A stretch of 64,000 bases of DNA from Escherichia coli (GTDB lineage Bacteria; Pseudomonadota; Gammaproteobacteria; Enterobacterales; Enterobacteriaceae). Under the pieces are notes generated by a model. That model had not been told where the DNA came from. It saw only the letters and a program-made list of their open reading frames with translations, and did not search any database. Each line of letters opens with the position of its first letter. Position 1 is the stretch's first letter. Below are positions 11,451 to 55,651 of this stretch, piece by piece. The position numbers and the translations under genes were made by a program. The stretch is from assembly GCF_965641715.1 (NCBI RefSeq), contig NZ_OZ282454.1. The stretch is one strand, 5' to 3'.

Positions 11451-11505
11451 AAAATCATCTGATACGTTTTTATCTGGCACAACGCGGGCTGTAATAACAT
11501 TAATA

Positions 11506-12096: not shown

Positions 12097-13513
12097 CGTT
12101 GCCTCCTCCCTGGCTGCCGGACATAAACTGCTGCGGATTCAGGTTGCCCAGCTGCTTCAGCATCTGGTCAGTATTAAAGCCGTTAAGATGACTTTCAGCT
12201 GATGGCGGAACAGGAACCGGACTTTCCGGATTATCTTCTTCCGCTCTGTTCTGCGTGCGCTCCAGCGCCATCTCTTCCACGGTTTTCAGCTGGAAGCCGT
12301 CCTGGAACACCACGGTCACTTCGTTGCCCGCACCAATCGGTATCACCGGGTGATACTGTTCGGCACGTTTGATGTAGTAGTCACTGAGCGTCTGTGCGGC
12401 TTTCGATGCGCCGCCACCGATACCCATTTTAAGGACATCGCCGGCCCCGTAAGCAGCAGTGGCACCCAGCCCGACAGCCGGCTGGGAAGCACGCTCCATT
12501 CCCTGACCGATACCGTCAACAAATCCCGCGCCCCATGCCCAGCCGAGGATTTTGCCGTTACGCATCACCACTTCGCCCTTAATACCGTTTTTACCCCGGA
12601 AGCTGACATGCCCCTTAATCGGCATATCAATGGTTTTGCCGTCCTTCAGGCAGCTGATATTGCGGGTACGTACAATGGCACGCTCACTGGAGACATCCCC
12701 CCAGGCTTCCAGACCCACAAAACATCCCTTTGCGTCATACGTTTTGCTGTTCGGCATTTCCACCAGGCCGATGATACGCAGCTGCATCGGCACCGTGGAT
12801 TCATTACCAGTAACAGAGGCATTGGCATCCGCCCCTTCAATCAGCATGGCTTTCGCAAAACTTCCTGACGGAATGTACGGCAGCGAGGGGCCCTGTTTTC
12901 CCTCATTACGGGTGAACACCTTACGCTGTATCCGGTTAGGCACCGGTACAGACTGGTACGTCACCTGCGGTGGTGGCGTGACACCATTCCCGGGATAAAA
13001 CGCCGTCGGCGGTGGAACAGCAACGCTGCCCTGCGGCGGGAAAGATACGGGTGTGTTTCCTGGCTGTGGTTCGCCTTCCGGGCCGGGCGGTGAGGCTGGC
13101 GTCTGCGGTACTGGCTCACCGGTCGCGGTGACAGGATTTGCACCCAGGGCTTTCACCTGCTCTGCCAGTGCAGCATTGTCCTGTCCCAGCTTTTCAATAC
13201 GACGCTGGTCATCACCGCGCTGTTTGTTCAGGACATCCAGCTCACGACGGATTTCCTCATACTGCTTCTGCATCTGTGCTGCCGTCACCTGCATCTCTGT
13301 GGTGGCATGCTGACGCACCTTGTCATCAAAGGTCGTATCCACCACACCGGTCATATCCGGCACAGGCTCCTGTTCAGCCACGGTTTCACCGTTACCGGAC
13401 ATGTCCACATCAGACAGATACAGTGCCCCACCAATCGCGGAGGCTGCACCGACAACCACAATCCCCAGCCACAGGTACTGCTTGCGTTTCACAATGGTAT
13501 TGATACTGGCCAT
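12086..13513 (-). CDS. traB: TraB (VirB10-like)
   Basis: 475 aa, N-terminal TM, Pro-rich linker, conserved C-terminal domain. Confidence 0.93.
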   Translation of the reverse strand: MASINTIVKRKQYLWLGIVVVGAASAIGGALYLSDVDMSGNGETVAEQEPVPDMTGVVDTTFDDKVRQHATTEMQVTAAQMQKQYEEIRRELDVLNKQRGDDQRRIEKLGQDNAALAEQVKALGANPVTATGEPVPQTPASPPGPEGEPQPGNTPVSFPPQGSVAVPPPTAFYPGNGVTPPPQVTYQSVPVPNRIQRKVFTRNEGKQGPSLPYIPSGSFAKAMLIEGADANASVTGNESTVPMQLRIIGLVEMPNSKTYDAKGCFVGLEAWGDVSSERAIVRTRNISCLKDGKTIDMPIKGHVSFRGKNGIKGEVVMRNGKILGWAWGAGFVDGIGQGMERASQPAVGLGATAAYGAGDVLKMGIGGGASKAAQTLSDYYIKRAEQYHPVIPIGAGNEVTVVFQDGFQLKTVEEMALERTQNRAEEDNPESPVPVPPSAESHLNGFNTDQMLKQLGNLNPQQFMSGSQGGGNDGK

Positions 13514-16903: not shown

Positions 16904-17287
16904 TTATTCATCATCATTTTTTGGAAAAAATCGTTCCATCTCAGATGATACCTTCTCCCTGATATCTTCAACCATATTGGCATATTCAAACTTTGGATTT
17001 CCGGAGACATGAGGACTGAGAGACTCAATACCCAAAATTTTCGCTACTGATGATTGTGTTTTTACAACGCATTCAAGAAGCAATTTATTAAACTCAGTCT
17101 GATTAAATGCAGACTCTTTACGCTCCATCTGAGCCTCATGTACACGAAGCCCCAGTTCAAGAAGCATTGACGCTGTTGCTGAAAAACTGACATCTTTTTC
17201 CCTTGCCCCTTCCTGTCGACGCTTCTCAATAATCGCATTTATTTTTTCATAGGCATCATTGCTGATATACAGGTTCACCTTAGCCAT
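16904..17287 (-). CDS. traM: TraM relaxosome accessory protein
   Basis: 127 aa identical over its length to recalled F TraM (MAKVNLYISNDAYEKINAIIEKRRQEGAREKD...). Confidence 0.95.
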   Translation of the reverse strand: MAKVNLYISNDAYEKINAIIEKRRQEGAREKDVSFSATASMLLELGLRVHEAQMERKESAFNQTEFNKLLLECVVKTQSSVAKILGIESLSPHVSGNPKFEYANMVEDIREKVSSEMERFFPKNDDE

Positions 17288-17289
17288 TA

Positions 17290-17640
17290 GAGATTACCTT
17301 TTTTGAACATAAAATAAAGTTAATTTCGAAACACTAAAATTCATAATGCAAACAGGGACGCACCGCTAGCAGCGCCCCTAGCGGTATCCTATAAAAAAAC
17401 ACACCGCGCCGCTAGCAGCACCCCTAATATAAAATAATGTTTTTTATAAAAATAGTCAGTCCCCCCCCTACAAAGCGGTGTCGGCGCGTTGTTGTAGCCG
17501 CGCCGACACCGCTTTTTTAAATATCATAAAGAGAGTAAGAGAAACTAATTTTTCATAACTCTCTATTTATAAAGAAAAATCAGCAAAAACTTGTTTTTGC
17601 GTGGGGTGTGGTGCTTTTGGTGGTGAGAACCACCAACTAG
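17290..17640 (+). promoter_or_regulatory. oriT: oriT region with F-type nic motif; inferred nic between 17609 and 17610
   Basis: TTTGCGTGGGGTGT/GGTGCTTTTGGTGGTGAGAACCACC at 17597-17635; GCTAGCAGC-containing direct repeats and a long inverted repeat (17479-17516) upstream; lies between traM and geneX. Confidence 0.8.
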
Positions 17641-17700
17641 TTGAGCCTTATTGTGGAGTAGGTTAAATTATTTCCGGATAATGTCACCAGAGGTGAAAAA

Positions 17701-18210
17701 ATGAAAAAGTGGATGTTAGCAATCTGCCTGATGTTTATAAATGGAATCTGCGAAGCCGCCGATTGCTTTGATCTTGCAGGTCTGGATTACAAAATAGACC
17801 CGGATTTACTGAGAGCGATATCATGGAAAGAATCCCGTTACCGGGTTAATGCCATTGGTATTAATCCGGTAACGGGATATGGCAGCGGACTGATGCAGGT
17901 AGACTCCCAGCATTTTAACGAACTGGCCCGCTACGGAATTAAGCCAGAACATCTGACAACAGATCCCTGCATGAACATTTATACCGGTGCCTATTATCTG
18001 GCAATAGCATTTAAAAAATGGGGCGTATCCTGGGAAGCCGTTGGTGCATACAATGCCGGATTCAAAAAGAGTGAACGCCAGAACCGGAGGCGTCTTGCTT
18101 ATGCATCAGACGTTTACCGGATTTATACCGGGATAAAGAGCAGTAAAGGCATCCGGGTTCCGACCACGAAGAAATCACTCCCCCAAATTAACAGTGTGCA
18201 GAACAATTAA
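17701..18210 (+). CDS. lytic transglycosylase GeneX/Orf169 (P19 family)
   Basis: 169 aa with signal peptide and SLT-like motifs (ISWKESRY...GLMQV...AYNAG); first gene beyond oriT. Confidence 0.88.
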
Positions 18211-18468
18211 TATTGTATACATTGTCAAATACCGGTTATGCCGCGACAGCGGCATGGAAGGCCACACACAAAAATATCATATGAGTGATAATGCTGACTG
18301 GCCGAAGCCCCGCAAAGCGGGAACCCATCTTATATATATCCGGTAACTACGCAGCCTCCTGCCAGACCATTTTTCGCGGGCACAATATTTACAGACTACC
18401 GAAAAGCCAGTTGATGAAATTGAGGTATATCAGACGACACAGCAATGCCGCAGGATGATAATATAAGT

Positions 18469-18492
18469 AAAGCCCCGAAAAATTTTTCGGGG
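18469..18492. terminator. palindromic hairpin, possible bidirectional terminator
   Basis: GCCCCGAAAAATTTTTCGGGGC followed by T-rich run; between convergent geneX and ORF 18666-19328. Confidence 0.4.
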
Positions 18493-18665
18493 CTTTACTT
18501 ATATTATCATGACTTCCACTCCCTGAACTGTTCGGCAATCATCCATAATGCTTTGTTGATTCGGATATCACCGTCAATGCCTGTAATTGCTCTTGTTCTG
18601 GTATTTTTACCGGAGGCACTTCGCCCCGATAATCCACCTTTTATCATATTCTCCTGAACCCGCTG

Positions 18666-19328
18666 CTAGGTTGTCCAGAGATCGTTCTGTTTATCCTCCC
18701 AACGGCGGGGAGTAATTATTTGTTCAGGCGTCACTGGCGTTTTATTTTCATCTTCATACCTGACCATCAATGCAGCTCTGCCAAATAAATATTGTTCGTC
18801 ACTGTTAAGATGTATCCCTTTCATTGTCTCCATATTTTCAGTGACTTTATCAAAGACACCGGGCACTTCATACGCTCCCTCAATAACCTGCCCGACAATA
18901 TCACCTTTATGTGGAACGCGGATTTCGCCAAAATTATTCCCGCACACCAGGCCATTTGTGTAGACAAAACGAAAAATTCCTGGGATCATCTGATAACTGG
19001 ATGAACCATCATGTGAATTAAGCAGGGTAATTTCAGGAACTTCTTTCCCGTTAATATGCCCTTCCCTGCGAAGACGTAACATATGTTTACTGTATTCGCG
19101 GCGTCCCAAATCACGAACCCGACTCTGACAGGCAAAGAACGGCTGGAAACCTTCATCACGTAACTTATTGATGATATTGATGGTTGGGATATATGTATAA
19201 CGCTCACTCCGGGATTCATGTTTATCACCAGAAAAAACAGATGGAACAAACTGCATTAATTCGTCATCCGTTAACGGGCGCTCACGGCGAATAGAATTAT
19301 ATCGACCAAAACGGGAAGCTAATCGCAT
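18666..19328 (-). CDS. hypothetical leading-region protein (possibly DUF932-like)
   Basis: 220 aa ORF; family assignment from memory only. Confidence 0.55.
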   Translation of the reverse strand: MRLASRFGRYNSIRRERPLTDDELMQFVPSVFSGDKHESRSERYTYIPTINIINKLRDEGFQPFFACQSRVRDLGRREYSKHMLRLRREGHINGKEVPEITLLNSHDGSSSYQMIPGIFRFVYTNGLVCGNNFGEIRVPHKGDIVGQVIEGAYEVPGVFDKVTENMETMKGIHLNSDEQYLFGRAALMVRYEDENKTPVTPEQIITPRRWEDKQNDLWTT

Positions 19329-19438
19329 AACAGTAACTCCTTTATGAAGGCATAAAATTAATAAAAATTTTTTCGCTTAATATCATCCCCCCTCGGTTAT
19401 CGTTAACAAAAAGACAACAATTCCGAGGGGAAGGACCA

Positions 19439-19735
19439 TCAAATCAGGTCAGTTCGGGACTGACCAACCTGCCGAGTGAAAAGCAGTAACAGCGCGATCA
19501 ACTCATCAGCGTTTTTTCTGACAAGAGGAGTATGATTCTCCAGGCTATCCAGTAAGTCATGCAGCTCATTATTGACCTGGTGGAGCACCTTAAAGAGTGC
19601 ACCAGAATCCCGGCAGCTCTGATATGCAAGGTTTGCCTGAACTGCACGATTCTGCATAATCCCGATTTGTGCGATTGCGTCTTTCTGCTGATCGCCTGTT
19701 GGCTGATAAGTGGTGTTAAAAGAAAATGCGCTCAT
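19439..19735 (-). CDS. hypothetical leading-region protein
   Basis: 98 aa ORF immediately downstream (in transcription sense) of repeat copy A. Confidence 0.45.
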   Translation of the reverse strand: MSAFSFNTTYQPTGDQQKDAIAQIGIMQNRAVQANLAYQSCRDSGALFKVLHQVNNELHDLLDSLENHTPLVRKNADELIALLLLFTRQVGQSRTDLI

Positions 19736-19749
19736 AATTCCTCCTGTAT

Positions 19750-20100
19750 CTGATGTTTTCAGCCCCCATCATCTGTTGAGTTTCGGGACCCGCCGCAACG
19801 ACGAAGAGCGCGTGCGCGAAACGGCGTTGCCCCTTACATCCCGGCGGCTTTTTGCCGGGATGCAAGGAGCGCAGGCCACGGCGCGACAGAGGCGGCGCGA
19901 CCGGAACGGTCGCTGCAAGCCCGGGGTTTTCACGCATCGGACCGTAGCGACAGCCCGAAACCGCGCCAGCGGGTTCGGCGGAGACTGGCAGGTGCGCCAG
20001 CAGCTGCCTGTCGGAGTCGGGCCTGACGACCGGATGCCGCCAGGCAGCCGGGAGCCGAAGGTGCGCCCGGCAGACAGGACAACACTGCTGTAGTCAGAAT
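19750..20100. repeat. Frpo/ssi-like leading-region repeat, copy A (shorter; lacks the 5' block)
   Basis: about 330 bp near-identical to 25431-25770 and similar to 28750-28890. Confidence 0.7.
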
Positions 20101-20351
20101 CAGAGCAGGAAGAAAAAGAGAATAATCACGGGAAAGGTAATGTCATTTCTGACAACTGACCATAAACAGAGAAGGCGGGGGAAAAGAACGGGCGCCGCAG
20201 GCGCACGTTCATCCCCTTTCCCGAAGGGAAAGCGCCTTCCAGGCAGTCTGGTTGTTCATGCCCGTACAATGCCAGCAAGGAGAAAGGGGCCACCGGCGAA
20301 CCAGCAGCCCCTTTATAAAGGCGCTTCAGTGCAGTCAGACCAGCATCAGCC

Positions 20352-20378
20352 CTGAAAAGGCGGGCCTGCGCCCGCCTC
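20352..20378 (-). terminator. rho-independent terminator of hok mRNA
   Basis: minus strand GGAGGCGGGCGCAGGCCCGCC then TTTTCAGGG, just 3' of hok stop. Confidence 0.5.
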
Positions 20379-20385
20379 CAGGTTG

Positions 20386-20547
20386 CTACTTACCGCCGGA
20401 TTCGTAAGCCATGCTTGCCGTAACCTCCCTGTATCCGTCCTTCAGCCGTATTTCGCACAGACGATTCCGGGTCAGGAGTGTGAATATCAACAACGTGCAG
20501 CACACGATTAATACGCACCAGATAAGGGCGTTTCCCGGTAGTTTCAT
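20386..20547 (-). CDS. hok: Hok/Gef family toxin (FlmA/Hok-like)
   Basis: hand translation [53 protein letters not shown] (53 aa); not in supplied ORF track (under 60 aa). Confidence 0.85.
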
Positions 20548-20605
20548 GGTTTACTCCTCCTTGCAATTTGCACGGTAAGAGGCCATACTGACGTGGACTA
20601 GACAT
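20390..20605 (-). CDS. mok: Mok-like overlapping reading frame
   Basis: 71 aa ORF overlapping hok in a different frame, as in hok/mok/sok loci. Confidence 0.55.
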
Positions 20606-21064
20606 GCAAAGGCCTCGTGGGTTAATGAAAATTAACTACGGGGCTTTTGTCCTTCTGCCACACGACAGGATAACAAACCACCTTCACGTCATGAGGCAGA
20701 AAGCCTCAAGCGCCGGGCACATCATAGCCCATATACCTGCACGCTGACCACATTCACTTTCCCTGAAAATAATCCGGTCGTTCAGCCAGTTCACGGGCAA
20801 TCAGTTCATCCGCAAACAGTGGTGCATGCCTGTTGATACGTTTCTCCAGATTCCGCCGTCGTACCACAGCCTTACGTTCTTCGCTCCAGCGGCGCACCTA
20901 GCGGTCAGAAATAAAATCCAGACAGACCGCATACCCTGCACCGGCAACCCAGCGTGACATAACGGATGCCGGTGCAGGCTGCCCCGCCTCCACCACTTCT
21001 GAAACCAGTTCATGCTCGCCAGGACAGGGAGAAGGCAGTTTCCAGCGCAATGAGTAACGCCACT

Positions 21065-21784
21065 TCACGCCGCCTCCCGGAGTTTGTTCGGCACCATCCA
21101 CCGCTCCATCTCACGGACAGCGTGACCGGCCTCTCTTGCTGCAAGACTGGCTTCCGCAATAACCTGCCAGAACGGCATATTCTGCCACTGCCAGCGTTCC
21201 ATTCCGGACAGTGACGGAAAACGCTCGCCCCACTGCCAGAACAGGGTTTCCAGGTCATGCTCTGCCACCCGGTCACTCCAGCGTGCATGCCAGCTTCCGA
21301 CTGTTTCCGGCGAATGGAATGCCAGTTCGATTTCAGCCTGAGCGACCAGCGCCTGGTACGCACGGGCTTTCTGCTCTGCCTCCCGTGCCTGCTGGCGGCT
21401 GTACTTCTGCATGACCAGCGCGGATTTATGGCGACTTCGCTCCCTGACACGAAACCGCACCGACGGAAACACCCCCTCTGCTGCATCACCGGGAAGGGGA
21501 AGGAGGCAGACCTCGCCCTGTGTTTCAATCAGCACATCGATGGCATACAGCCACTGAAGACGGTTGCCGTGCAGTTCTTCTGCGGTCAGGGACGGCATGA
21601 AAAATCGCAGGTCAGACAGCGATATCCTGCGGCTTCCGTTCAGACAGCGGAAAAACGCCCCCGCATACGGATATTCCGCCAGCGTGTTACCCTGATGGCG
21701 GCGTTTTTCTGTCTCCGCCACCGCCCGCCATGCGGCCTGTTGCTCTGTGCTGAGGGGAACCAGTGCCTGTGAACGTGCGCTCAT
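21065..21784 (-). CDS. psiA: PsiA plasmid SOS-inhibition protein A
   Basis: 239 aa, same length as F PsiA; directly downstream of psiB. Confidence 0.9.
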
Positions 21785-22218
21785 ACCTGACCTCCTTCCG
21801 CCATCAGGATATGGATGATGTCGTTAACGCTGTACCCCTGCGTATCCAGTGACGCCGCCAGTGCCAGTGAATGGCTGACTGCTTCCGGTGCAAACCGCCG
21901 CTGCACCTGAACCACCGCAAACGGCTCACCACCGGCATTCACCAGAACCAGCACCCAGACCAGAGAGACATTTCCCGGTGAACATAACGCCAGGTGAAAA
22001 CGTTCGTGGACAGGCGTGAAACGGACCTGGACGGGGAAAAAGCCGCCAAACTCGCTGCCGTACTCGCCGTTCAGCGTCCAATTGTCCGGCGCATCCAGCT
22101 CCCGCATCACGGCGTGTGTCAGCTCACGACGTTCACCACTTCCGGCAGCCCGGATATCCTCATATTCCTGTGCGCTCATGGTCTGTAATACATCCAAGGT
22201 CAGTTCAGTTTTCATCAC
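21781..22218 (-). CDS. psiB: PsiB plasmid SOS-inhibition protein B
   Basis: 145 aa; recalled PsiB sequence ([47 protein letters not shown]...). Confidence 0.92.
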
Positions 22219-22269
22219 GGTATCTCCCTTGCTGCCGCCCCGTCTCCGGCGGGGCGGTGTGGTTGTTCA

Positions 22270-24228
22270 TCAGGCGGCATCAGCCAGGTTATCGGCGCGT
22301 TCAGTGGCATCCGTCTGTGGACGTGGTGAACCCATCCAGCCAGGCACCCAGCGGTTGTCTTTCATGTGGAACTCTGCATGTTCAGCGGCATCGCCTTTCT
22401 TCATCTTCTCCGCGTCCTGTGCGGCACCGGACAGTCCGGCATCATTCAGGGCTGCGATAATCTGCGGCTTTTTCAGGTGTCCGAAGAAGTTTGCTTTCGT
22501 CGGCTGCCACCAGTCGCGCATGTGAAAGCCGATAGCGGTTTCCAGCGAGTCAAGCGGACTGCGTGACGTGTGACCATACTCACGGGTCTGAACACCGTGG
22601 ATGCTGCATGCGGTGCAGAAACTGAGCAGGGATAACAGCACCTCCTGACTGAGTGACAGGAACGTCGTCATGTTCCGTGCCCCCCCCTCCGGCAGCAGGG
22701 CAGCAAGACGGGCTTTTTCTGCCATCATCGCCATGAATGCGGCACCTTCCTTCCCCGATGGCGCATCGCTGGTCAGCGAATAATGTTTACATTCCAGGCT
22801 GATTTGTGCTGGTTTACTGTACGCTCCGCTGCCAAACACATTCAGACAGAGCGTCCATGCCAGCAGTGCCAGAGATTTGTCCGGCTGTTGCATCAGCGCC
22901 GCCTGGACTGCCAGCGTGCGCTCTGAAGACATTTTCGTCAGCAGTGGCAGACTGATTTCCTCCACTGACGCTTTCTCCTGCACCTGTTCCGTGCGGTCAG
23001 CGTCGGCAGCCGCGTCATCCTCGCTGCGCAACTGCACACCACGCTGGACACATACGTTGCCATAACGCCAGGACACCACCACACCGCTTCCGGCACGCAT
23101 CTCCGGCGTCCACGCCATGACCTTCGCCATGCAGTCAATCAGCTTCATTTCAGCTTCCAGCAGGTCGGATTCCTCACAGTGGTTTTCCAGCGCGTCGTAA
23201 CGTGCCATCAGTTCGTTCAGGCGTTCTTCTTCCGCCTCGGTCAGCACCGCTTCCGGCTCCGGCAGACAACGGTATGTTCCGGCATCCTCACGGCAGAAAC
23301 CGACAGGCTCCATACGTCCGGCGCACCATTCCCAGCCTTCAGCTTCCCGAAGGTGTTCAGCGACAGCCTGGAGTTTTTCCAGCAGGGCTGCATCGAGCGC
23401 AACACAGTCCACATAGCCACCCTCGTCGTCGCTGAACAAATCGGTGCGCAGTTCGTCTGGCGAGAAGGCATCAGCCCCCACGAAGCGGAATTTACTGTTC
23501 CCCGCCACCGCCACTTCACTTTCGGTCACCAGACGACGAATGGTCTGCACTTCCGGTTTTCCACCCCATCCCGACTGACAGGCAGCTTCAAACACCTGCA
23601 CCTGACGCGCGGTGTCGTTCTCCAGCGCCAGCGCCTGACAGTGCTCTGTGGTGATGCGGTCTTCTGCCAGCGCACCGAGGATGACTGGTGCAAGGTCTGC
23701 CAGTTTCAGCATTCGCTGAACGTGGCGGGGTGAATAGCCCAGCAAATCACCGATTTGTGCAGGTGTTTTGCCTTCCTGCGCCATTGCGCGGAATCCGGCA
23801 ATCTGTTCGGCAGGGTGCATATCCCGACGCTGACCGTTCTCGGTCAGCGATGCAGCCGTCGCCAGTTCCTGCGGGATAACCTTCACGCGGACAGGCCAGT
23901 CCGCCGGAATGATTCCACGCTCTGCCAGCATATTGAGTGCTGCCAGTCTGCGACCACCTGCGGCGACACCGTGGCGGTCACCTGGCAGGGCATGCACGAC
24001 CAGATTCTGCAGCAGGCCGACGCCTTTAATGGACTCCGCCAGTTCGCTGACTGACTCCGCAGAATACGGCACCGTGCGCACATTCAGTGGTGATTTAATC
24101 AGTGAGGCCAGCGGCACGCTCACTTCCGCCGTCTGCGCCAGCAGGGCTGACAGGGCAGTCTCCTGCTCTTTTGACGGTTTACGGCTGGATTTACGCTCCG
24201 TTTTTGTCTTAGACTCTGTAACTGACAT
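22270..24228 (-). CDS. ParB/Srx-like nuclease-domain protein (F Orf652/YubM type)
   Basis: 652 aa; N-terminal ParB-like region; conserved leading-region position upstream of psiB. Confidence 0.85.
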   Translation of the reverse strand: MSVTESKTKTERKSSRKPSKEQETALSALLAQTAEVSVPLASLIKSPLNVRTVPYSAESVSELAESIKGVGLLQNLVVHALPGDRHGVAAGGRRLAALNMLAERGIIPADWPVRVKVIPQELATAASLTENGQRRDMHPAEQIAGFRAMAQEGKTPAQIGDLLGYSPRHVQRMLKLADLAPVILGALAEDRITTEHCQALALENDTARQVQVFEAACQSGWGGKPEVQTIRRLVTESEVAVAGNSKFRFVGADAFSPDELRTDLFSDDEGGYVDCVALDAALLEKLQAVAEHLREAEGWEWCAGRMEPVGFCREDAGTYRCLPEPEAVLTEAEEERLNELMARYDALENHCEESDLLEAEMKLIDCMAKVMAWTPEMRAGSGVVVSWRYGNVCVQRGVQLRSEDDAAADADRTEQVQEKASVEEISLPLLTKMSSERTLAVQAALMQQPDKSLALLAWTLCLNVFGSGAYSKPAQISLECKHYSLTSDAPSGKEGAAFMAMMAEKARLAALLPEGGARNMTTFLSLSQEVLLSLLSFCTACSIHGVQTREYGHTSRSPLDSLETAIGFHMRDWWQPTKANFFGHLKKPQIIAALNDAGLSGAAQDAEKMKKGDAAEHAEFHMKDNRWVPGWMGSPRPQTDATERADNLADAA

Positions 24229-36094: not shown

Positions 36095-36336
36095 ACCAGG
36101 CTGGCGTGCAGAATGGTGATCTGCTGGTAGTGGACAGGGCCGAAAAACCACAACACGGGGACATCGTTATCGCTGAGATCGACGGGGAGTTCACCGTCAA
36201 ACGACAGCTGTTGCGCCCACGCCCGGCACTGGAGCCGGTTTCAGACAGCCCGGAGTTCCGCACACTGTATCCGGAAAACATCTGTATTTTTGGTGTTGTC
36301 ACTCACGTGATACACAGGACGCGGGAGTTATGCTGA
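36095..36336 (+). pseudogene. UmuD/MucA-like (S24 peptidase) gene, 5'-truncated
   Basis: C-terminal part ...SGESM...GDLLVVDRA...HGDIVIAEIDGEFTVKRL...FGVVTHVIH matches UmuD'; N-terminal region absent. Confidence 0.6.
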
Positions 36337-37576
36337 TGTTTGCACTGGCTGATATCAACAGTTTCTACGCCTCATGTGAAAAAGTTTTCCGCCCGGACCT
36401 TCGCAACGAACCGGTCATCGTACTCAGCAATAACGATGGCTGTGTGATCGCGCGCAGCCCGGAGGCAAAAGCTCTTGGCATCAGAATGGGGCAGCCCTGG
36501 TTTCAGGTCAGACAAATGCACCTGGAGAAGAAAATACATGTATTTTCCAGCAATTATGCACTGTACCACAGCATGAGCCAACGGGTTATGGCTGTTCTGG
36601 AGTCGCTTTCTCCCGCAGTTGAGCCCTACTCAATTGATAAAATGTTCATTGATTTGCGGGGGGTGAACCGTTGCATCTCTCCGGAGGTTTTGGTCATCAG
36701 CTCAGGGAACAAGTAAAGAGCTGGACAGGACTCGCCATGGGGGTGGGCATTGCGCCTACAAAAACGCTGGCCAAAAGTGCACAGTGGGCAACAAAGCAAT
36801 GGCCACAGTTTTCCGGTGTGGTCGCGCTGACGGCAGAAAACCGTAATCGAACCTTCAAGTTACTGGGGCTGCAGCCTGTTGGTGAAGTCTGGGGAGTAGG
36901 ACGCAGACTGACGGAAAAGCTGAATGCGCAGGGTATTAACACAGCGCTGCAGCTGGCGCAGGCTAACACGGCATTCATCCGGAAAAACTTCAGCGTCATT
37001 CTTGAGCATACAGTACGCGAACTCAACGGCGAGTCCTGCATATCTCCGGAAGAAGCCCCACCGGCAAAACAGCAGATTGTCTGTAGTCGCAGTTTTGGTG
37101 AACGAATCACAGACAAAGATGCCATGCACCAGGCTGTTGTTCAGTATGCAGAGCGGGCCGCAGAGAAACTACGTGGGGAGCGTCAGTATTGCCGGCAGGT
37201 GGCGACATTTATACGAACGTCACCCTTTGCAGTGAAAGCCCCCTGTTACAGCAATTCCGCTGTGGAAAAGCTTCCATTGCCTACACAGGACAGCCGGGAC
37301 ATTATTGCCGCAGCATGCAGAGCGTTAAACCATGTCTGGCGTGAAGGGTACCGCTATATGAAGGCAGGAGTCATGCTGGCTGATTTCACACCATCGGGTA
37401 TAGCGCAGCCGGGATTATTTGATGAAATCCAGCCCCATAAAAACAGCGAAAAGTTAATGAAAACACTCGATGAACTGAACCAGTCGGGAAAAGGGAAAGT
37501 GTGGTTTGCGGGGCGAGGAACCGCCCCTGAATGGCAAATGAAACGGGAAATGTTGAGTCAGTGTTATATGTATTAG
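36330..37576 (+). pseudogene. UmuC/MucB-like Y-family polymerase gene, frameshifted at T4 run 36688-36691 and 3'-truncated by IS
   Basis: ORF 36330-36716 (LADINSFYASCE...) and ORF 36671-37576 are consecutive parts in different frames; C-terminus ends inside IS481-family left end. Confidence 0.8.
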
Positions 37577-38769
37577 TCGCGACTTGATCTGACACATGAC
37601 CTTGAAAGGTTGAGAGTTACCGGTTTTGATATGGGTGTCGAATCCTTATACAAAACACGAGGTAACTCTCATGCTTCATACTACCAATCCCGTCATCAAA
37701 CACAAAGCCGGTTTGCTCAATCTGGCTGAAGAACTCAGCAATGTATCAAAAGCCTGTAAAATCATGGGCGTTTCGCGTGATACATTTTATCGCTATCGCG
37801 AACTGGCCGATGAAGGCGGTGTGGATGCGCTGGTTAATCGTAGTCGCCGCGCCCCTAACCTTAAGAACCGTACCGATGAGCTAACTGAGCAGGCCGTTGT
37901 CGATTATGCCGTCGCTTTCCCGGCGCACGGTCAGCACCGGACCAGCAACGAGCTGCGCAAACAGGGCGTTTTTATCTCAGGAAGTGGTGTCCGTTCTGTC
38001 TGGCTGCGCCACAATCTTGAAAACTTCAAAAAGCGTCTGAAAGCACTGGAAGAAAAAGTGGCTCGTGATGGCATTGAACTGACCGACAGCCAAATAGCCG
38101 CGCTGGAACGTAAAGCCAGCGATGACGAGGCTTGTGGTGAAATTGAAACCGCCCATCCAGGTTATCTGGGTTCACAGGACACATTCTATGTCGGCAATCT
38201 GAAAGGTGTCGGGCGTATTTATCAGCAAACATTCGTTGATACCTACTCGAAGGTTGCTCATTGCAAGCTGTATGTCACCAAAACACCGATTACTGCGGCT
38301 GATTTACTGAATGATCGTGTGCTGCCGTTTTATGCGTCTCAGGGCCTGCCAGTGCTCAGAATACTGACAGACAGAGGCACAGAATATTGTGGCAAAGTGG
38401 AGCAGCATGATTACCAGCTTTATCTGGCAATAAATGACATCGACCACACAAAAACTAAAGCGATGTCACCGCAGACGAATGGTATCTGCGAACGGTTCCA
38501 CAGGACGATATTGCAGGAATTTTATCAGGTCGCGTTCCGCAAAAAGCTGTATGGCGAACTCGACACATTACAGTCGGATCTTGATGAATGGCTGGCTCAC
38601 TATAATAATGAGCGAACCCATCAGGGGAAAATGTGCTGTGGCCGGACGCCAATGGAAACGTTACTTGATGGAAAGCACATCTGGGCTGAGAAAAATTTAA
38701 GCCAGATGTAATCTGACAGATACCTGTATAAATAACCGGTAACTGTCAGATCAGGTCTGAGCTAATACA
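37569..38769 (+). mobile_element. IS481-family insertion sequence, copy 1 (ends plus/minus about 10 bp)
   Basis: ends TGTATTAGTCGCGAC...GAGCTAATACA; one DDE transposase ORF; identical copy inverted at 48591-49790. Confidence 0.75.
37626..38711 (+). CDS. IS481-family DDE transposase
   Basis: 361 aa; N-terminal HTH; integrase core with SPQTNGICERFHRTILQEF. Confidence 0.85.
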   Translation: MIWVSNPYTKHEVTLMLHTTNPVIKHKAGLLNLAEELSNVSKACKIMGVSRDTFYRYRELADEGGVDALVNRSRRAPNLKNRTDELTEQAVVDYAVAFPAHGQHRTSNELRKQGVFISGSGVRSVWLRHNLENFKKRLKALEEKVARDGIELTDSQIAALERKASDDEACGEIETAHPGYLGSQDTFYVGNLKGVGRIYQQTFVDTYSKVAHCKLYVTKTPITAADLLNDRVLPFYASQGLPVLRILTDRGTEYCGKVEQHDYQLYLAINDIDHTKTKAMSPQTNGICERFHRTILQEFYQVAFRKKLYGELDTLQSDLDEWLAHYNNERTHQGKMCCGRTPMETLLDGKHIWAEKNLSQM

Positions 38770-39016
38770 ATTTATCAGCCGATTTACACGCCATAGGTGA
38801 ATCATGTTGAACGACTATGGCTGTTACTTCACAACACAATAACGCGTAATCATCAGTGCTGCTCAATGTGGCAACTGTTGAAAGATGTTCGCCATTTTAT
38901 AGAAACCGTCAGCCCATTCTCCGGAGGCAAACATGGGCTGGCGAAAGTGTAGTGGTATTAGGCACAGCTACTGAGTACGGATTTAACTTCGTATTGGATT
39001 TTATTGCCTCTGTTTA

Positions 39017-39718
39017 TTATAAGTACATCTGTAATTTATAAATCTCACTAAGCTTTACAGACGGATAATAATAACCTTGCCCCCCCCACAGACTTACATC
39101 TCTAATTTTATCCAGAATATATTGTGATTCAATTCCCTCAGCTATTACTTTTGAACAATGAGTTGAAATGCGCTTTATAATTTCACTGAAGTATTCTTTA
39201 TTAAGCGTTCTATAAAGAAAGTCTTTATCAAGCTTAACCGCCCCAACATCTTGTAATTGAGATATATTTATTTTACAGTTGTCAGCACCAAAATCATCGA
39301 CCCATATATGATTTGTAATATTTAGTAGCTTATTAACAATAATTCTACTATTTTCATGAAAATACGGAAATGTTTCTGATATTTCAAGAGCAATGAAGTC
39401 ATTCTCAATTATAGTTTTCTGAAGTTCCTTACAGTTAAAGATAAAAATGCAAGTATCATAATCAATATTAATTGAGCAAATTAAATCATTTTTGATAAAA
39501 AATGATTTTTGTTCAGCTATGGATTTTATTTGTTGCTGTAGTATATTTATCTTCATTGCTGAAGATAACCTCAGAAATGTATGTTGTGTTGATAATTGCT
39601 CGCCGCTTTGTGTATAAAAGCGACTTAGTACTTCAACAGCAACTAACTTGTTGTTTTTTATATCAACAATTGGCTCAACAATAAAATAAACACCCAAAAT
39701 ACAGCTCCAGTTTATCAT
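39017..39718 (-). CDS. EAL-domain protein (c-di-GMP phosphodiesterase-like, possibly degenerate)
   Basis: 233 aa, AT-rich; EVL in place of EAL, DDFGADN, KLDKDFL, EGIES. Confidence 0.65.
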   Translation of the reverse strand: MINWSCILGVYFIVEPIVDIKNNKLVAVEVLSRFYTQSGEQLSTQHTFLRLSSAMKINILQQQIKSIAEQKSFFIKNDLICSINIDYDTCIFIFNCKELQKTIIENDFIALEISETFPYFHENSRIIVNKLLNITNHIWVDDFGADNCKINISQLQDVGAVKLDKDFLYRTLNKEYFSEIIKRISTHCSKVIAEGIESQYILDKIRDVSLWGGQGYYYPSVKLSEIYKLQMYL

Positions 39719-40776
39719 ATGCTCTCATGAAATACAGTCGACTGTATTTCATGAGTATGTGGTAGTGTTTGCTACGATTAGCATCACCATCTAAAGTGAT
39801 AATGCGTGATAAATAAAATATAAACCACATAAAAAAAACATCAATCATCACAATATAAATTAAATATTTTTAATTTAAAAATGATGTAATGACTATAGAT
39901 GACATTTGCTCACGACGCACTTATATAGCAAAATAAATTTGCTGAGTCACATATGTTACCCTTCTTTTTAGATCTAACCCTTGCTGGCTAAGGATATATA
40001 TTTAAAAACCGCACTTTTTTTAGTGCTCAGTTTTTAAATACTGAGTGGATATCCTGTCGCTCTATTTTTGAAGATTAATTGATCTTATTATCCCCACATC
40101 AAGAATAAAAAGCAATAACAAAACTGAACATTATGTGAACTCCCAAGGGTTTTGCCCCTCTTGTCCGATACGGCATGATGTAACATATCGAGAAAATACT
40201 CTATTCTTATCTGTACAAAACTTTGAGTGAAGAGCGGGAAATCACGGAGAAGTAGTTATCAAAATATAATACTGGGGGAATACTAACCGAACCATTATTT
40301 AGGCAGGATAACAAAAAATGCATGGGACGATACTTGACGAACAGGCATGGAGGGGTTCCTGTGTAATTGATTCCACAAATTATTAGATCAATAAGCTCTA
40401 TGCCTACCCCCCCCATTACAGGGATTCCTCAGCACAGCTGTAAGTTCGGACTATGGGTAAAAAAGATACCCGTCAGGTAACGAGCTAACGCATTAATCAT
40501 CAGATGAGCGAAGTATCGTTTATTGTAAGTATGACCGCCACCAGAATGAATATTCAGCCTGTAACGCATTCTGGCGAATAGTCGGCTTCGATACAGTAAA
40601 CGACTCATTTGATAACGATCTTTATCAATAACTCAATTTTATGAGGTAAAAAAAACAGCACCGTATCTGCTATTACAGAATGAAGAACATTAAATAAACC
40701 TGAGTTATTATCCAACGCGGAAAACCGCCAGTGCTGTAAAATTACCAATAAAACAACCAGCAAGTCACGATTCTTT

Positions 40777-41163
40777 TTATTTCTTATATTTTGACAACAT
40801 TAAAAAATTAATTATTAGCTTATTATGCGCCCCCTCTCTATCGACGTAGCACCCTCTGCACCAGAACTCCCTGTTCCTGTATTTGAATTTCAAATCCCCA
40901 AACTGCTCGTAAAGCATCCGACTGCTTTTCCCTTTCAGATATCCCATAAAGCCGGATACGCTCATTTTGGGCGGGCTCTCCACAAGCATATGGATATGAT
41001 CTACGCAGCATACAGTTTCCATAATCCGTACACTTTTCCACTCACACAGCTTTCTCAAAATACTGCCTATTGCTCTACGCCTCTCTCTGTAGAATACCTG
41101 TCTTCGGTATATTGGCGCAAAAACGATGTGATATTTACAGTTCCATTGGGTGTGCGTCCCCAT
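40777..41163 (-). CDS. IS200/IS605-family TnpA-like (Y1 transposase), possibly degenerate
   Basis: WNCKYHIVFAPIYRRQ...CCVDHIHMLVESPPKMSVSGFMGYLKGKSS...; C-terminus diverges. Confidence 0.6.
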   Translation of the reverse strand: MGTHTQWNCKYHIVFAPIYRRQVFYRERRRAIGSILRKLCEWKSVRIMETVCCVDHIHMLVESPPKMSVSGFMGYLKGKSSRMLYEQFGDLKFKYRNREFWCRGCYVDREGAHNKLIINFLMLSKYKK

Positions 41164-42567
41164 TGCCCCCCCCCCCTTCCTTTTGATTTCTTGTCTGACA
41201 CTTGCAGTTGCCAGACCGCAGGGTGTTTTAACAAATCAAAAGTTTTTTTCTGTGCACAAAAAAAAACCGCCATGCCAGGCGGTTTGAAGCATAAGAATAC
41301 ACATTTTATACTTTGAGGTGTCGGGTGCCTCCCGAAATACCCGCCCAAAGACAGATATTGTGATTCCCCCGCTAAACCACTATATAAACCACCCTCGCAC
41401 TGAGGAACACCTCTGTAGTGTTATTCACAACACAGAAATGCCACATCACCGACACTACCAGAAACAGGAGAATTCCACCAATAATGCAGCATTCCTGTAT
41501 TGTGAAATATTAATACTGCAACTATACCTGACTTGGTATCATAGTAAGATACACTTGTTATCCCGTCTGTCGACATGAAATAAAAAAGCATTACTACATC
41601 TTTACAACTTTTAAGGTTGATACTACCGATGGTTCATATTAAATCAAAAATATAATTAGTTATAATGTGTTAACATATGTATATATTTGTATCAGACATG
41701 TGCATTTTATTCCTCCTTCTACTGCTCTCGCATTGGATTTTGCAAAAAACACCATGAACATGAACCATTTGGGATTGCACTCATTCAATTCTCGCAATGA
41801 CAGAAGAGTCACTTCGGGTTAACCGGTATATTGAAATGCCATCAGAGAATATATTTTAAAAAAGAGATAGGCTTGAATATATGATTAACACAAGTTCTAA
41901 TTTTGAGATGTTCTTTGCTATGCTGGTACTCTGTTAGCGCCCCCTCAGGGAAAAATCGTTTTTATTCGGCAGAACATGGAGTCCGGCATCCACGTGTTCC
42001 ATGTGGCTCAGGTTTATGGTATTTGCCCCCCCCCCGTTGTTTAAATATCAGGAAGGAAATCCTATTGCTGTTGCCGCAGGTGAAGATGTCGTTCCTTCTT
42101 CAACTCTATAAAACAAATAAAAGAGTTACAGCCCATGATGAGCAAAAAAATGGCTAGTGAGATCTTCTCAAAGAATCAGTGGAGTACGCTTTGTCGCAAA
42201 AATGAATAGCACCGCCCTAGTTGCCAACGGACATTGAATAAACCCTAGTAAGCCGTATTCTGGGCGTGTAGCGCACACAACAAGTATAACGAATGAAAAT
42301 CTTGGTAAGAAGACAAATAAATGGTTCGTAAATGCAAAGCGCGTTTATAGAATAAAAGTATGCGAGCGTACGCCTATAGTCACGTTACTTTATAGAAAAG
42401 GTATCTGGGCAGAAAAAATCTGAACCAGATTTGAGACGGTACATAGATTTGTGTAATTGCCTGATTTTGATATGTTCAATCCAGCATCAAATGAAGGTTA
42501 ATTTATGACGAAAAACAGTTACAGGCTCTGGCTAACTAACTGGCCAAAAACCTCAATCCCCTTGAAG

Positions 42568-55113: not shown

Positions 55114-55614
55114 CACCGTTATATGTATTAGTCGCGACTTGATCTGACACATGGCCTTGAAAGGTTGAGAGTTACCGGTTTTGATATGGGTGTCGAATCC
55201 TTATACAAAACACGAGGTAACTCTCATGCTTCATACTACCAATCCCGTCATCAAACACAAAGCCGGTTTGCTCAATCTGGCTGAAGAACTCAGCAATGTA
55301 TCAAAAGCCTGTAAAATCATGGGCGTTTCGCGTGATACATTTTATCGCTATCGCGAACTGGCCGATGAAGGCGGTGTGGATGCGCTGGTTAATCGTAGTC
55401 GCCGCGCCCCTAACCTTAAGAACCGTACCGATGAGCTAACTGAGCAGGCCGTTGTCGATTATGCCGTCGCTTTCCCGGCGCACGGTCAGCACCGGACCAG
55501 CAACGAGCTGCGCAAACAGGGCGTTTTTATCTCAGGAAGTGGTGTCCGTTCTGTCTGGCTGCGCCACAATCTTGAAAACTTCAAAAAGCGTCTGAAAGCA
55601 CTGGAAGAAAAAGT
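55114..55614 (+). mobile_element. IS481-family element, copy 3, 3'-truncated by IS66
   Basis: identical to first 500 bp of copy 1; transposase ORF 55181-55618 cut after ...KALEEKV. Confidence 0.75.
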
Positions 55615-55651
55615 GTAAGCGTACAGCGAGGGCCGTATTGACGGGGATGTG

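What the first reader, a model, noticed from the sequence alone, without database searches (positions are those of the whole stretch)
39017..39718. Stand-alone, probably degenerate EAL-domain protein co-located with the AIDA-I adhesin
The protein has EAL-domain landmarks but EVL in place of the signature EAL and an altered DDFG(T/A)GYSS-like loop (DDFGADN). This resembles catalytically inactive EAL regulators such as YdiV-type proteins. A c-di-GMP-linked regulator travelling with an adhesin could couple adhesion or biofilm behaviour to the mobile element.
Basis: partly seen in the sequence, partly recalled or inferred. Interest (0 to 1): 0.45.

Follow-up and report, generated by a model that had tools for sequence, protein, structure and literature searches.

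The report
Plasmid EAL phosphodiesterase linked to AIDA-I
This is an intact small gene for a c-di-GMP-degrading (EAL) enzyme that keeps every catalytic residue, so it is probably not a dead YdiV-type regulator, and it belongs to an unstudied three-gene regulator set that travels with AIDA-I-type adhesin operons on pig E. coli plasmids.

Summary
The ORF is real: window 39017-39718, minus strand, 233 aa, or 226 aa from a homologous TTG start at 39697. It is a stand-alone EAL domain (Pfam E 9e-20).

The "degenerate" reading does not hold. All ten residues needed for c-di-GMP hydrolysis are present and invariant across a family down to 32% identity. YdiV keeps 4 of these and STM1697 keeps 6. EVL and a non-canonical loop 6 are normal in compact stand-alone EALs, including the active enzymes PdeH and SfaY. 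The closest solved structures are YdiV and STM1697, but their FlhD-contact residues are not conserved here.

The adhesin link is real and old. In a diverged lineage (67-70% protein identity, dS about 0.9-1.5) the gene sits between two Rob-like AraC regulators, next to a heptosyltransferase/AIDA-like operon. The same two regulators lie at window 51073-53044. Here IS elements have split the set, and an inversion between two IS481 copies has moved the EAL gene.

The gene is dispensable: 1 of 24 complete genomes with classic aah carries it.

Most likely it is an active accessory phosphodiesterase analogous to SfaY. No experiment exists. Interest is moderate.

The parts
39017..39718 (-). Stand-alone EAL-domain gene. 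It is 233 aa from the ATG at 39718, or 226 aa from the homologous TTG start at 39697. It carries EVL at residues 29-31 and loop 6 DDFGADNCK at residues 141-149.
   Evidence: ORF. Pfam EAL E 9.2e-20. All ten catalytic residues kept. AlphaFold model pLDDT 90.1. dN/dS 0.20 against the LD39-1 homologue.
39724..39755 (.). Perfect 32-bp palindrome CTCATGAAATACAGTCGACTGTATTTCATGAG directly upstream of the EAL ORF. It could be an operator or a 5' hairpin; its function is unknown.
   Evidence: Read. It occurs once in the window and only in plasmids with this EAL type. Homology with the LD39-type cassette begins just after it.
40104..40140 (-). Copy 1 of a conserved 37-nt element, about 386 nt upstream of the EAL start.
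   Evidence: There are 2 copies in the window against 0 expected. The same element lies about 370 nt upstream of AraC1 in all LD39-type loci.
40777..41284 (-). IS200/IS605-type tnpA (40777-41163) with its STnc490 leader RNA (41180-41284), inserted between the EAL gene and aah.
   Evidence: ORF. Annotation. Rfam RF01405 at 69.2 bits.
43550..44725 (+). aah, the autotransporter adhesin heptosyltransferase.
   Evidence: Pfam TibC_1st plus Glyco_transf_9. Annotation. Its protein is 70% identical to TibC and 90% identical to the LD39-1 enzyme.
44725..48588 (+). aidA, the AIDA-I autotransporter adhesin (1287 aa).
   Evidence: ORF. Annotated as AIDA-I in near-identical plasmids.
37564..38769 (+). IS481-family element, copy A.
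   Evidence: 1206-nt arm, 100% complementary to copy B. Annotated as transposase.
48591..49796 (-). IS481-family element, copy B, inverted relative to copy A. Together the two copies bracket the EAL-to-aidA segment.
   Evidence: The bracketed segment is inverted relative to pPE041_2 and CP055625.
38770..38952 (.). One half of an IS630-type relic, lying between IS481 copy A and the EAL stop codon.
   Evidence: Annotated as a pseudogene in pPE041_2, mapped to window coordinates through.
49808..50328 (.). The other half of the transposase relic. In pPE041_2 the two halves flank a single IS481 copy.
50677..50713 (+). Copy 2 of the conserved 37-nt element, about 360 nt upstream of AraC1.
51073..51918 (+). 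AraC1, a Rob-like AraC-family regulator with an N-terminal HTH and a C-terminal GyrI-like domain (281 aa).
   Evidence: Pfam. NCBIfam RobA model 134 bits, below its cutoff. 70% identical to the first regulator of the LD39-type cassette.
52211..53044 (+). AraC2, a second Rob-like AraC-family regulator (277 aa).
   Evidence: 68% identical to the third gene of the LD39-type cassette.

Best explanation
The gene most likely encodes a catalytically competent, stand-alone c-di-GMP phosphodiesterase of about 226 aa. It belongs to a plasmid-borne E. coli family of compact EAL proteins that are repeatedly found beside adhesin and autotransporter loci. It is one of three co-inherited regulatory genes: two Rob-like AraC regulators plus this EAL. 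These three accompany heptosyltransferase/AIDA-type adhesin operons. In the diverged LD39-type lineage the order is AraC1-EAL-AraC2. In this lineage the order is EAL-AraC1-AraC2, later split by IS630, IS481 and IS200 insertions and, in this window, by an inversion between two IS481 copies.

Inferred mechanism: when expressed, the protein hydrolyses c-di-GMP to pGpG using the standard two-metal EAL chemistry. Glu29, Asn84, Glu112, Asp141 and Asp142 would bind the metals, Lys162 and Glu194 would activate water, and Arg33 and Gln214 would hold the substrate. This would lower the cell's c-di-GMP pool and shift the balance between motility, curli/cellulose matrix and adhesin-mediated aggregation in cells that carry the adhesin plasmid. 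SfaY does this within the S-fimbrial cluster.

Shown here: domain, residues, fold, purifying selection and linkage. Inferred: enzyme activity, the targets, and co-regulation through the shared 37-nt upstream element.
For: - **Domain and fold.** Pfam EAL E 9.2e-20. The AlphaFold model has pLDDT 90.1 and pTM 0.88 and matches EAL TIM-barrels only.
- **Catalytic residues.** All ten are present when aligned to the active enzyme Bd1971 and to a canonical EAL. All ten are invariant in ten family members down to 32% identity, while mean column identity is 59%.
- **Comparison with characterised proteins.** In the same alignment YdiV keeps 4 of 10, STM1697 keeps 6 of 10 and PdeH keeps 9 of 10.
- **Precedent for the odd motifs.** SfaY has EML, no Arg, and loop DDFGSGNAG, yet it depletes c-di-GMP in vivo (PMC9602443, PMC6385356).
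- **Purifying selection.** dN/dS is 0.20 against the LD39-1 homologue and 0.19 against the E24377A homologue.
- **Old linkage.** EAL, AraC1 and AraC2 are 67%, 70% and 68% identical between the two lineages. Their dS values (0.90, 1.08, 1.52) are in the same range as Aah's (0.92). The cassette lies next to a heptosyltransferase in all five P0003 loci shown and in LD39-1.
- **Shared upstream element.** The same 37-nt element sits in front of both the EAL gene and AraC1.
- **Relatives beside adhesins.** Proteins 31-46% identical to the query sit beside eatA, at the end of a pap-like fimbrial operon and near bundlin and K88-type pilin genes.
Against: - There is no biochemical or genetic data for any member of this family.
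- Loop 6 is non-canonical, and this subclade has lost its second glycine. The query has G-A-D-N, whereas 42 of 57 related intact EALs have Gly at that position.
- The family shares with the STM1697 clade a 4-residue deletion in the helix after KLDKxF. In canonical EALs that helix contributes to the dimer needed for activity, and in YdiV it is the FlhD-binding helix (PMC3510510).
- The nearest solved structures are the non-enzymatic YdiV and STM1697.
- The gene is absent from 23 of the 24 complete genomes whose aah is at least 99% identical, so AIDA-I function does not need it.
- In this window it is separated from its partner regulators and bounded by IS elements.
Confidence: 0.55

Rival explanations
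1. It is a YdiV/STM1697-type EAL-like protein. It would act only by binding FlhD and so shut down flagellar gene expression in adhesin-carrying cells, with no c-di-GMP turnover.
For: - The best PDB sequence hits are STM1697 (1e-21) and YdiV (1e-11).
- The best fold hits are YdiV and STM1697.
- The top non-family profile hit (P0014) lies in the STM1697 clade.
- The 4-residue deletion is shared with that clade, and loop 6 is of the G-x-G-N type.
- Some STM1697 contact positions are similar in the query: F160=F167, K167=K174, L173->I180, K175=K182, H176->R183.
Against: - The query keeps ten of ten catalytic residues, against 4 and 6 in YdiV and STM1697. Such retention across a 32-67% identity family is not expected for a pure binding protein.
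- STM1697's FlhD contact residues are conserved within its own clade but vary freely in the query family. Position 179 is E, G, V or K. Position 187 is H, F, I, L, V or E. L136 becomes the catalytic-type F. V115 and L116 are lost.
- YdiV's F155, F181 and A184 are not kept.
- F167 and K174 are generic in this group.
- In a rough neighbour-joining tree the family is its own clade (97% bootstrap) and is not nested in either degenerate clade.
Confidence: 0.12
2. It is a trigger-type or sensor EAL. It would bind c-di-GMP, and perhaps hydrolyse it, but its main output would be protein-protein control of the two neighbouring Rob-like AraC regulators. These would in turn control aah-aidA or other plasmid genes, in the manner of PdeR with MlrA/DgcM.
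For: - The EAL gene is sandwiched between the two regulators with gaps of 146 and 189 bp in the LD39-type cassette.
- The three genes have diverged to a similar degree.
- The same 37-nt element lies upstream of both the EAL gene and AraC1.
- ETEC relatives also pair with an AraC-type (YdeO-like) regulator.
- The deviant loop 6 and altered dimer helix would fit a regulatory rather than a bulk-hydrolysis role.
Against: - This rests purely on gene neighbourhood; no interaction data exist.
- The AraC pair is kept without the EAL gene in 6 of 7 complete genomes that carry it at over 99% identity, so the regulators do not need it.
- Relatives beside pap-like operons have no AraC partner.
Confidence: 0.2
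3. It is a leftover passenger. On this plasmid the gene would be intact by chance but functionally irrelevant or silent, stranded among IS elements and on its way to loss.
For: - Only 1 of 24 complete genomes with classic aah (at least 99% identity) has it, and only 4 PLSDB plasmids have it.
- It is bounded by an IS630 relic, IS481 and IS200, and is separated from AraC1 and AraC2.
- Its likely start codon is TTG rather than the ATG of its homologues.
Against: - The reading frame is intact and all functional residues are kept.
- dN/dS of 0.2 shows long-term constraint in the lineage.
- The copies in five plasmids are 99-100% identical without disruptions.
- It retains a Shine-Dalgarno-like GGAG and its own copy of the conserved upstream element.
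Confidence: 0.1

Closest known systems
SfaY (PdeY), the stand-alone EAL phosphodiesterase encoded at the end of the S-fimbrial (sfa) gene cluster of NMEC/UPEC
   Same: Both are small single-domain EAL proteins encoded within an adhesin gene cluster. Both have a non-Ala E-x-L motif and a DDFG-S/A-x-N type loop 6 instead of DFG(T/A)GYSS. SfaY is experimentally a c-di-GMP-depleting enzyme (PMC6385356, PMC9602443), which shows that these deviations are compatible with activity.
   Different: The two share only 23% identity (58 bits) and SfaY groups with the PdeH-like branch in the rough tree, so they are analogues rather than orthologues. SfaY is chromosomal, co-transcribed with fimbrial genes and paired with the regulator SfaX (annotated as an HTH-type transcriptional regulator). 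The query is on a plasmid, sits beside an autotransporter adhesin, and is paired with two Rob-like AraC regulators.
STM1697 and YdiV/RflP, the EAL-like anti-FlhD4C2 factors of Salmonella and E. coli
   Same: They are the closest solved structures by sequence and fold. Like the query they are compact 220-240 aa stand-alone EAL barrels. They share the G-x-G-N type loop 6, and STM1697 shares the 4-residue deletion after the KLD motif.
   Different: They have lost 4-6 of the ten catalytic residues in my alignment (8 of 10 for YdiV by the count in PMC3510510), and they neither bind nor cleave c-di-GMP. The query keeps all ten. Their FlhD-contact residues are not conserved in the query family. They are chromosomal core or accessory genes, not adhesin-linked plasmid genes.
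PdeH (YhjH), the main motility-associated stand-alone phosphodiesterase of E. coli
   Same: It is the best NCBIfam model hit (PRK11596, E 1.5e-22). It is a single EAL domain of similar size with a deviant loop 6 (DDFGTGMANF) and a non-Ala E-x-L motif (ELL).
   Different: The query scores 80 bits against the 190-bit cutoff and is 21% identical, so it is not an orthologue. PdeH is a flagellar class III chromosomal core gene. The query is a low-G+C plasmid accessory gene.
tibDBCA locus of ETEC H10407 and the AidA-like gene upstream of pdeL (yahA) in EAEC/EHEC
   Same: These loci also place a glycosylated or AIDA-like autotransporter adhesin next to regulators and an EAL gene. Downstream of tibA lies a truncated LuxR-HTH plus EAL (pdeL-like) gene. 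In EAEC and EHEC an AidA-like gene sits directly upstream of yahA/pdeL (PMC4287979).
   Different: The EAL genes there are of the PdeL type and give no detectable tblastn match to the query family. tibD and tibB are CaiF/GrlA-type and LuxR-type regulators, not Rob-like AraC regulators.

Membership tests
EAL domain c-di-GMP phosphodiesterase (catalytically competent) | EAL domain (PF00563) above the curated threshold | tested here: met
   71.5 bits against a 31.3-bit cutoff, E 9.2e-20, covering residues 15-218.
EAL domain c-di-GMP phosphodiesterase (catalytically competent) | The ten residues required for catalysis and for metal and substrate binding (RocR E175, R179, N233, E265, E268, D295, D296, K316, E352, Q372, numbering recalled from the RocR literature; PMC3510510 confirms only that ten conserved residues are essential) | tested here: met
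   E29, R33, N84, E112, E115, D141, D142, K162, E194 and Q214 are all present and invariant in 10 of 10 family members.
EAL domain c-di-GMP phosphodiesterase (catalytically competent) | Canonical loop 6, DFG(T/A)GYSS | tested here: not met
   The query has DDFGADNCK. However, none of 57 related stand-alone EALs with intact catalytic residues has the canonical loop, and the active enzymes PdeH and SfaY also lack it.
EAL domain c-di-GMP phosphodiesterase (catalytically competent) | Measured hydrolysis of c-di-GMP to pGpG, and dimer formation | not testable with these tools
   This needs purified protein. The 4-residue deletion in the helix after KLDKxF leaves dimerisation uncertain.
YdiV/RflP-STM1697 type EAL-like anti-FlhD4C2 factors | Loss of catalytic and c-di-GMP-binding residues | tested here: not met
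   The query keeps 10 of 10, YdiV 4 of 10 and STM1697 6 of 10 in the same alignment.
YdiV/RflP-STM1697 type EAL-like anti-FlhD4C2 factors | Conserved FlhD-contact residues (STM1697: V115, L116, L136, V147, F160, K167, L172, L173, K175, H176, Y180; YdiV: F155, F168, H175, E179, F181, R183, A184, Q188) | tested here: not met
   Only the generic F167 and K174 are conserved. The other positions vary within the family, while they are conserved in the STM1697 clade (residues taken from PMC5622320 and PMC3510510).
YdiV/RflP-STM1697 type EAL-like anti-FlhD4C2 factors | Compact EAL-like fold closest to YdiV/STM1697 | tested here: met
   Foldseek gives YdiV E 3.4e-17 (TM 0.86) and STM1697 E 1.3e-16 (TM 0.82/0.91), ahead of active EALs at about 0.72.
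YdiV/RflP-STM1697 type EAL-like anti-FlhD4C2 factors | Physical binding to FlhD and repression of flagellar genes | not testable with these tools
   No complex prediction or assay was available.
PdeH (YhjH) orthologue group | NCBIfam equivalog PRK11596 above its cutoff; chromosomal flagellar-regulon gene | tested here: not met
   80.1 bits against a 190-bit cutoff. 21% identity. All 44 DNA matches in 5,426 E. coli genomes are on plasmids.
SfaY/PdeY-like adhesin-cluster phosphodiesterases | Stand-alone EAL encoded within or beside an adhesin gene cluster | tested here: met
   The gene is 3.8 kb from aah-aidA here. Homologues are adjacent to the heptosyltransferase/AIDA-like operon. Relatives lie beside eatA, a pap-like operon, and bundlin or K88 genes.
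SfaY/PdeY-like adhesin-cluster phosphodiesterases | Sequence orthology to SfaY | tested here: not met
   23% identity and 58 bits. SfaY falls in a different branch of the rough tree.

The most novel reading that the evidence does not exclude
The EAL protein could be a living intermediate between an enzyme and a YdiV/STM1697-type protein-binding regulator. On this reading it is a c-di-GMP-responsive trigger enzyme. Together with the two Rob-like AraC regulators it would form a dedicated plasmid-borne switch coupling AIDA-I-type adhesin expression to flagellar or matrix control, acting through the shared 37-nt element, through FlhD, or through both.
Probability: 0.12. Interest if true: 0.65.

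Novelty: new member of a known kind. Interest (0 to 1): 0.38.

Why it matters
The regulation of the aah-aidA operon is poorly understood, and none of the papers I found describes a dedicated regulator for it. This work identifies a conserved, uncharacterised trio of two Rob-like AraC regulators plus a catalytically intact EAL protein. The trio has been co-inherited with AIDA-type adhesin operons across a deep split, which gives concrete candidates to test.

It adds another case to a recurring pattern in pathogenic E. coli, where adhesin and autotransporter loci carry their own c-di-GMP phosphodiesterase gene. Other cases are SfaY in the sfa cluster, pdeL-type genes next to tibA and AidA-like genes, and EAL genes next to eatA and pap-like operons.

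It also serves as a caution for annotation. In compact stand-alone EALs, 'EVL' and a deviant loop 6 do not signal inactivity. The ten catalytic residues are the discriminating feature.

Tried and rejected
- **tibD or tibB orthology.** I asked whether the gene is an orthologue of tibD or tibB in the ETEC tib locus. I located the locus in H10407. tibD is CaiF/GrlA-type and tibB is LuxR-type, and the EAL fragment downstream of tibA is pdeL-like with no tblastn match to the query family. Rejected.
- **SfaY orthology.** I fetched sfaY from IHE3034. It is 23% identical and sits in a different branch. It is an analogue only.
- **AraC remnant upstream of the EAL gene.** I looked for a remnant of an AraC gene upstream of the EAL gene in the window using tblastn. 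None was found. Only the 37-nt element is shared.
- **Literature.** Searches for AIDA-I plus EAL or c-di-GMP found nothing on this gene. The papers that define the E. coli pangenome names for accessory phosphodiesterases are not held: Povolotsky & Hengge 2016 (PMC4686209) and Lindenthal & Elsinghorst 1999 (PMC96707). I therefore could not check whether the distant ETEC plasmid relatives already carry a name such as PdeW or PdeX. My memory of those names is uncertain.
- **Riboswitch or other RNA.** An Rfam scan of 36-54 kb found only the IS200 STnc490 RNA and no riboswitch.
- **Promoter scan.** The scan of the EAL upstream region gave no more matches than shuffled sequence, 10 against 11.5 expected, so it is uninformative.
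- **EAL-FlhD fusion model.** I considered folding a linker-fused EAL-FlhD protein. I did not run it because the tool returns no coordinates or contact information, so the interface could not have been judged.
Full report
**1. The observation**

The window holds an uninterrupted ORF at 39017-39718 on the minus strand (233 aa). Pfam finds one EAL domain over residues 15-218 (E 9.2e-20, 71.5 bits against a cutoff of 31.3) and nothing else, so the protein is stand-alone.

The gene is about 29% G+C in a backbone of about 50%. aah (43550-44725) and aidA (44725-48588) lie 3.8 kb away on the opposite strand.

The start codon needs a small correction. All homologues are 226 aa and align from the TTG at 39697, which has GGAG 7 nt upstream. 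In the LD39-1 homologue the frame upstream of that point is closed by a TAG. The product is therefore probably 226 aa.

**2. Is it degenerate?**

No. The protein was aligned to the active enzyme Bd1971, to a canonical response-regulator EAL, and to PdeH and YdiV from E. coli K-12 fetched for the purpose. It keeps all ten residues that the literature defines as required for catalysis and c-di-GMP binding (PMC3510510 states that ten conserved residues are essential). These are E29, R33, N84, E112, E115, D141, D142, K162, E194 and Q214.

In the same alignment the counts for characterised proteins are:

| Protein | Residues kept (of 10) | Source |
|---|---|---|
| Query | 10 | |
| PdeH | 9 (lacks the Arg) | |
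| STM1697 | 6 | |
| YdiV | 4 | |

The ten residues are invariant in all ten family members, down to 32% identity, while mean column identity is only 59%.

I examined 109 short stand-alone EAL representatives nearest to the family, taken from an exhaustive profile search of 1.84 billion proteins. Of these, 57 keep all ten residues. Among those 57, only 2 have Ala in E-x-L, 15 have Val, and none has the canonical DFG(T/A)GYSS loop. PdeH (ELL; DDFGTGMANF) and SfaY (EML; DDFGSGNAG) are proven phosphodiesterases with the same deviations. SfaY over-production depletes cellular c-di-GMP (PMC9602443, PMC6385356).

One caution remains. The query subclade has lost the second glycine of loop 6 (G-A-D-N here), whereas 42 of the 57 have Gly at that position.

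**3. The resemblance to YdiV-type proteins**

The resemblance is real but limited.

- By sequence, the closest solved structures are STM1697 (1e-21) and YdiV (1e-11).
- An AlphaFold model (pLDDT 90.1) matches YdiV (TM 0.86) and STM1697 (TM 0.82/0.91) better than active EALs (about 0.72).
- The family shares with the STM1697 clade a 4-residue deletion in the helix after KLDKxF, and a G-x-G-N type loop.

However, the residues by which STM1697 and YdiV grip FlhD (listed in PMC5622320 and PMC3510510) are conserved within the STM1697 clade and vary freely in the query family.

A rough neighbour-joining tree gives these results:

- The query and the LD39-type proteins form one clade with 100% bootstrap.
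- The E. coli plasmid family as a whole forms a clade with 97% bootstrap.
- That family sits inside an unresolved radiation of compact stand-alone EALs, most of which keep the catalytic residues.
- YdiV and STM1697 are separate degenerate twigs within that radiation.
- Members of the STM1697 clade itself (P0014, 42% identical to STM1697) still have all ten residues.

The family is thus a neighbour of the degenerate regulators, not one of them.

**4. Context and evolution**

*Distribution.* The gene is rare. At near-identity it occurs in four PLSDB plasmids and in one of 5,426 complete E. coli genomes, always on AIDA-I plasmids and, where the source is recorded, from pigs.

*The conserved trio.* Homologues 66-67% identical to the query (P0002, P0003, LD39-1) sit in a fixed cassette: AraC (280 aa), EAL (226 aa), AraC (282 aa). 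The cassette lies beside a TibC/Aah-type heptosyltransferase and an AIDA-like adhesin on one side. On the other side are an 894-aa autotransporter and a polysaccharide lyase.

The window carries the counterparts of both regulators at 51073-51918 and 52211-53044, at 70% and 68% identity. Both are Rob-like, with an N-terminal HTH and a C-terminal GyrI-like domain.

Synonymous divergence between the two lineages is of the same order for all four genes, and all are under purifying selection:

| Gene | dS | dN/dS |
|---|---|---|
| EAL | 0.90 | 0.20 |
| AraC1 | 1.08 | 0.18 |
| AraC2 | 1.52 | 0.14 |
| Aah | 0.92 | 0.08 |

The three regulatory genes and the adhesin operon have therefore been linked since before the two lineages split.

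*Rearrangement in this window.* In this lineage the order is EAL-AraC1-AraC2, and it has been broken up. An IS630 relic, later split by IS481, separates the EAL gene from AraC1 in pPE041_2.

In the window, two identical inverted 1206-bp IS481 copies (37564-38769 and 48591-49796) bracket the segment from the EAL gene to aidA. That segment is flipped relative to pPE041_2 and CP055625. The flip places the EAL gene next to umuC and places the 3' end of aidA next to the regulators.

*Shared upstream element.* A 37-nt element lies about 360-390 nt upstream of both the EAL gene (40104-40140) and AraC1 (50677-50713). It also lies upstream of AraC1 in every LD39-type locus. This suggests shared control, but its function is unknown.

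*Dispensability.* Of 24 complete genomes with aah at least 99% identical, only one has the EAL gene. Six of seven genomes with the identical AraC pair lack it.

**5. Wider family**

More distant members are also plasmid-borne and sit by adhesins or autotransporters:

| Relative (identity to query) | Neighbourhood | Source |
|---|---|---|
| ETEC plasmid EAL (44-46%) | Next to eatA, with a divergent YdeO-like AraC regulator | |
| P0177 (40-41%) | At the end of a pap-like fimbrial operon, upstream of a SPATE and a haemolysin operon | |
| P0010 cluster (32-33%) | Near bundlin-like and K88-type pilin genes | |

Independently, non-homologous pdeL-type EAL genes lie next to related adhesin genes. One sits downstream of tibA in H10407 and is truncated by IS66. 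Another sits downstream of an AidA-like gene in EAEC and EHEC (PMC4287979). Pairing of an adhesin with a phosphodiesterase gene is thus a recurrent theme.

**6. Mechanism**

The best-supported reading (confidence about 0.55) is an active accessory c-di-GMP phosphodiesterase. It would lower c-di-GMP in cells that express the adhesin island, analogous to SfaY.

| Explanation | Confidence |
|---|---|
| Active accessory c-di-GMP phosphodiesterase | about 0.55 |
| Trigger or sensor EAL working with the two AraC regulators | 0.2 |
| Pure FlhD-binding YdiV-like factor | 0.12 |
| Stranded passenger gene | 0.1 |

None of these can be settled without biochemistry.

**7. Novelty and score**

I found nothing in the literature on this gene or on the AraC-EAL-AraC trio. 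The functions of the tib-locus regulators are likewise described as undetermined (PMC7545054).

It is a new member of a known kind: an adhesin-linked stand-alone EAL phosphodiesterase. It has an uncharacterised regulatory neighbourhood. A specialist would find it useful rather than surprising, so I score interest at 0.38.

Noticed in passing
window 37564-38769 and 48591-49796 (segment 38770-48590): Two 100% identical IS481-family copies in inverted orientation bracket the segment from the EAL gene to aidA, like a composite transposon. The whole segment is inverted relative to pPE041_2 and CP055625, while the flanks stay collinear. A third, partial IS481 copy lies at 55119-55615.
   Followed up: yes
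window 40104-40140 (-) and 50677-50713 (+); L005-L012 upstream of AraC1: A conserved 37-nt element (GTTCACATAATGTTCAGTTTTGTTATTGCTTTTTATT) sits about 360-390 nt upstream of both the EAL gene and the first AraC gene. It is also found in the diverged LD39-type loci. It contains a GTTCA...GTTCA direct repeat spaced 11 nt apart. Its function is unknown.
   Followed up: partly
window 39724-39755: A perfect 32-bp palindrome lies immediately upstream of the EAL ORF. It is unique to this EAL type and marks the point where homology with the LD39-type cassette begins.
   Followed up: partly
L030 (ETEC H10407 chromosome) 17187-24102: In the tib locus, tibD is annotated as CaiF/GrlA-type and tibB as LuxR-type. 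Directly downstream of tibA are a LuxR-HTH fragment and a 132-aa EAL fragment (pdeL/yahA-like) truncated by IS66. This is a second, non-homologous pairing of an adhesin with an EAL gene.
   Followed up: partly
window 53149-53733 (+): A histidine-phosphatase ORF follows AraC2. Related plasmids annotate it as LPS core heptose(II)-phosphate phosphatase, and LD39-1 carries a gene with the same annotation about 10 kb from its cassette, beyond the autotransporter/lyase genes and an IS1. A heptose-phosphate enzyme beside a heptosyltransferase-dependent adhesin may not be a coincidence.
   Followed up: no
L012 15192-20282 and L005-L011: The LD39-type cassette is flanked on its other side by an 894-aa autotransporter and a polysaccharide lyase family 8 protein. 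This gene pair is absent from the window.
   Followed up: no
L013 (pETEC_74 of E24377A) 6468-12543; L014: Human ETEC plasmids carry an EAL protein 46% identical to the query, with all ten catalytic residues. It is divergently paired with a YdeO/GadX-like AraC regulator and, on pETEC_74, lies immediately downstream of the eatA serine-protease autotransporter gene.
   Followed up: partly
window 41180-41284 (-) and 40777-41163 (-): An IS200 copy with its STnc490 Hfq-binding leader RNA (Rfam 69 bits) is inserted between the EAL gene and aah.
   Followed up: no
window 36330-37576 (+): The plasmid umuC gene appears as two overlapping ORFs. It is annotated as frameshifted in pPE041_2, and it abuts IS481 copy A.
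   Followed up: no
L017-L021 (P0160 loci): A widespread 229-aa plasmid EAL (cluster of 1,040 members, 43% identical to the query) lies near plasmid-encoded PAS-HAMP-MCP chemoreceptor-like genes on several E. coli plasmids.
   Followed up: no
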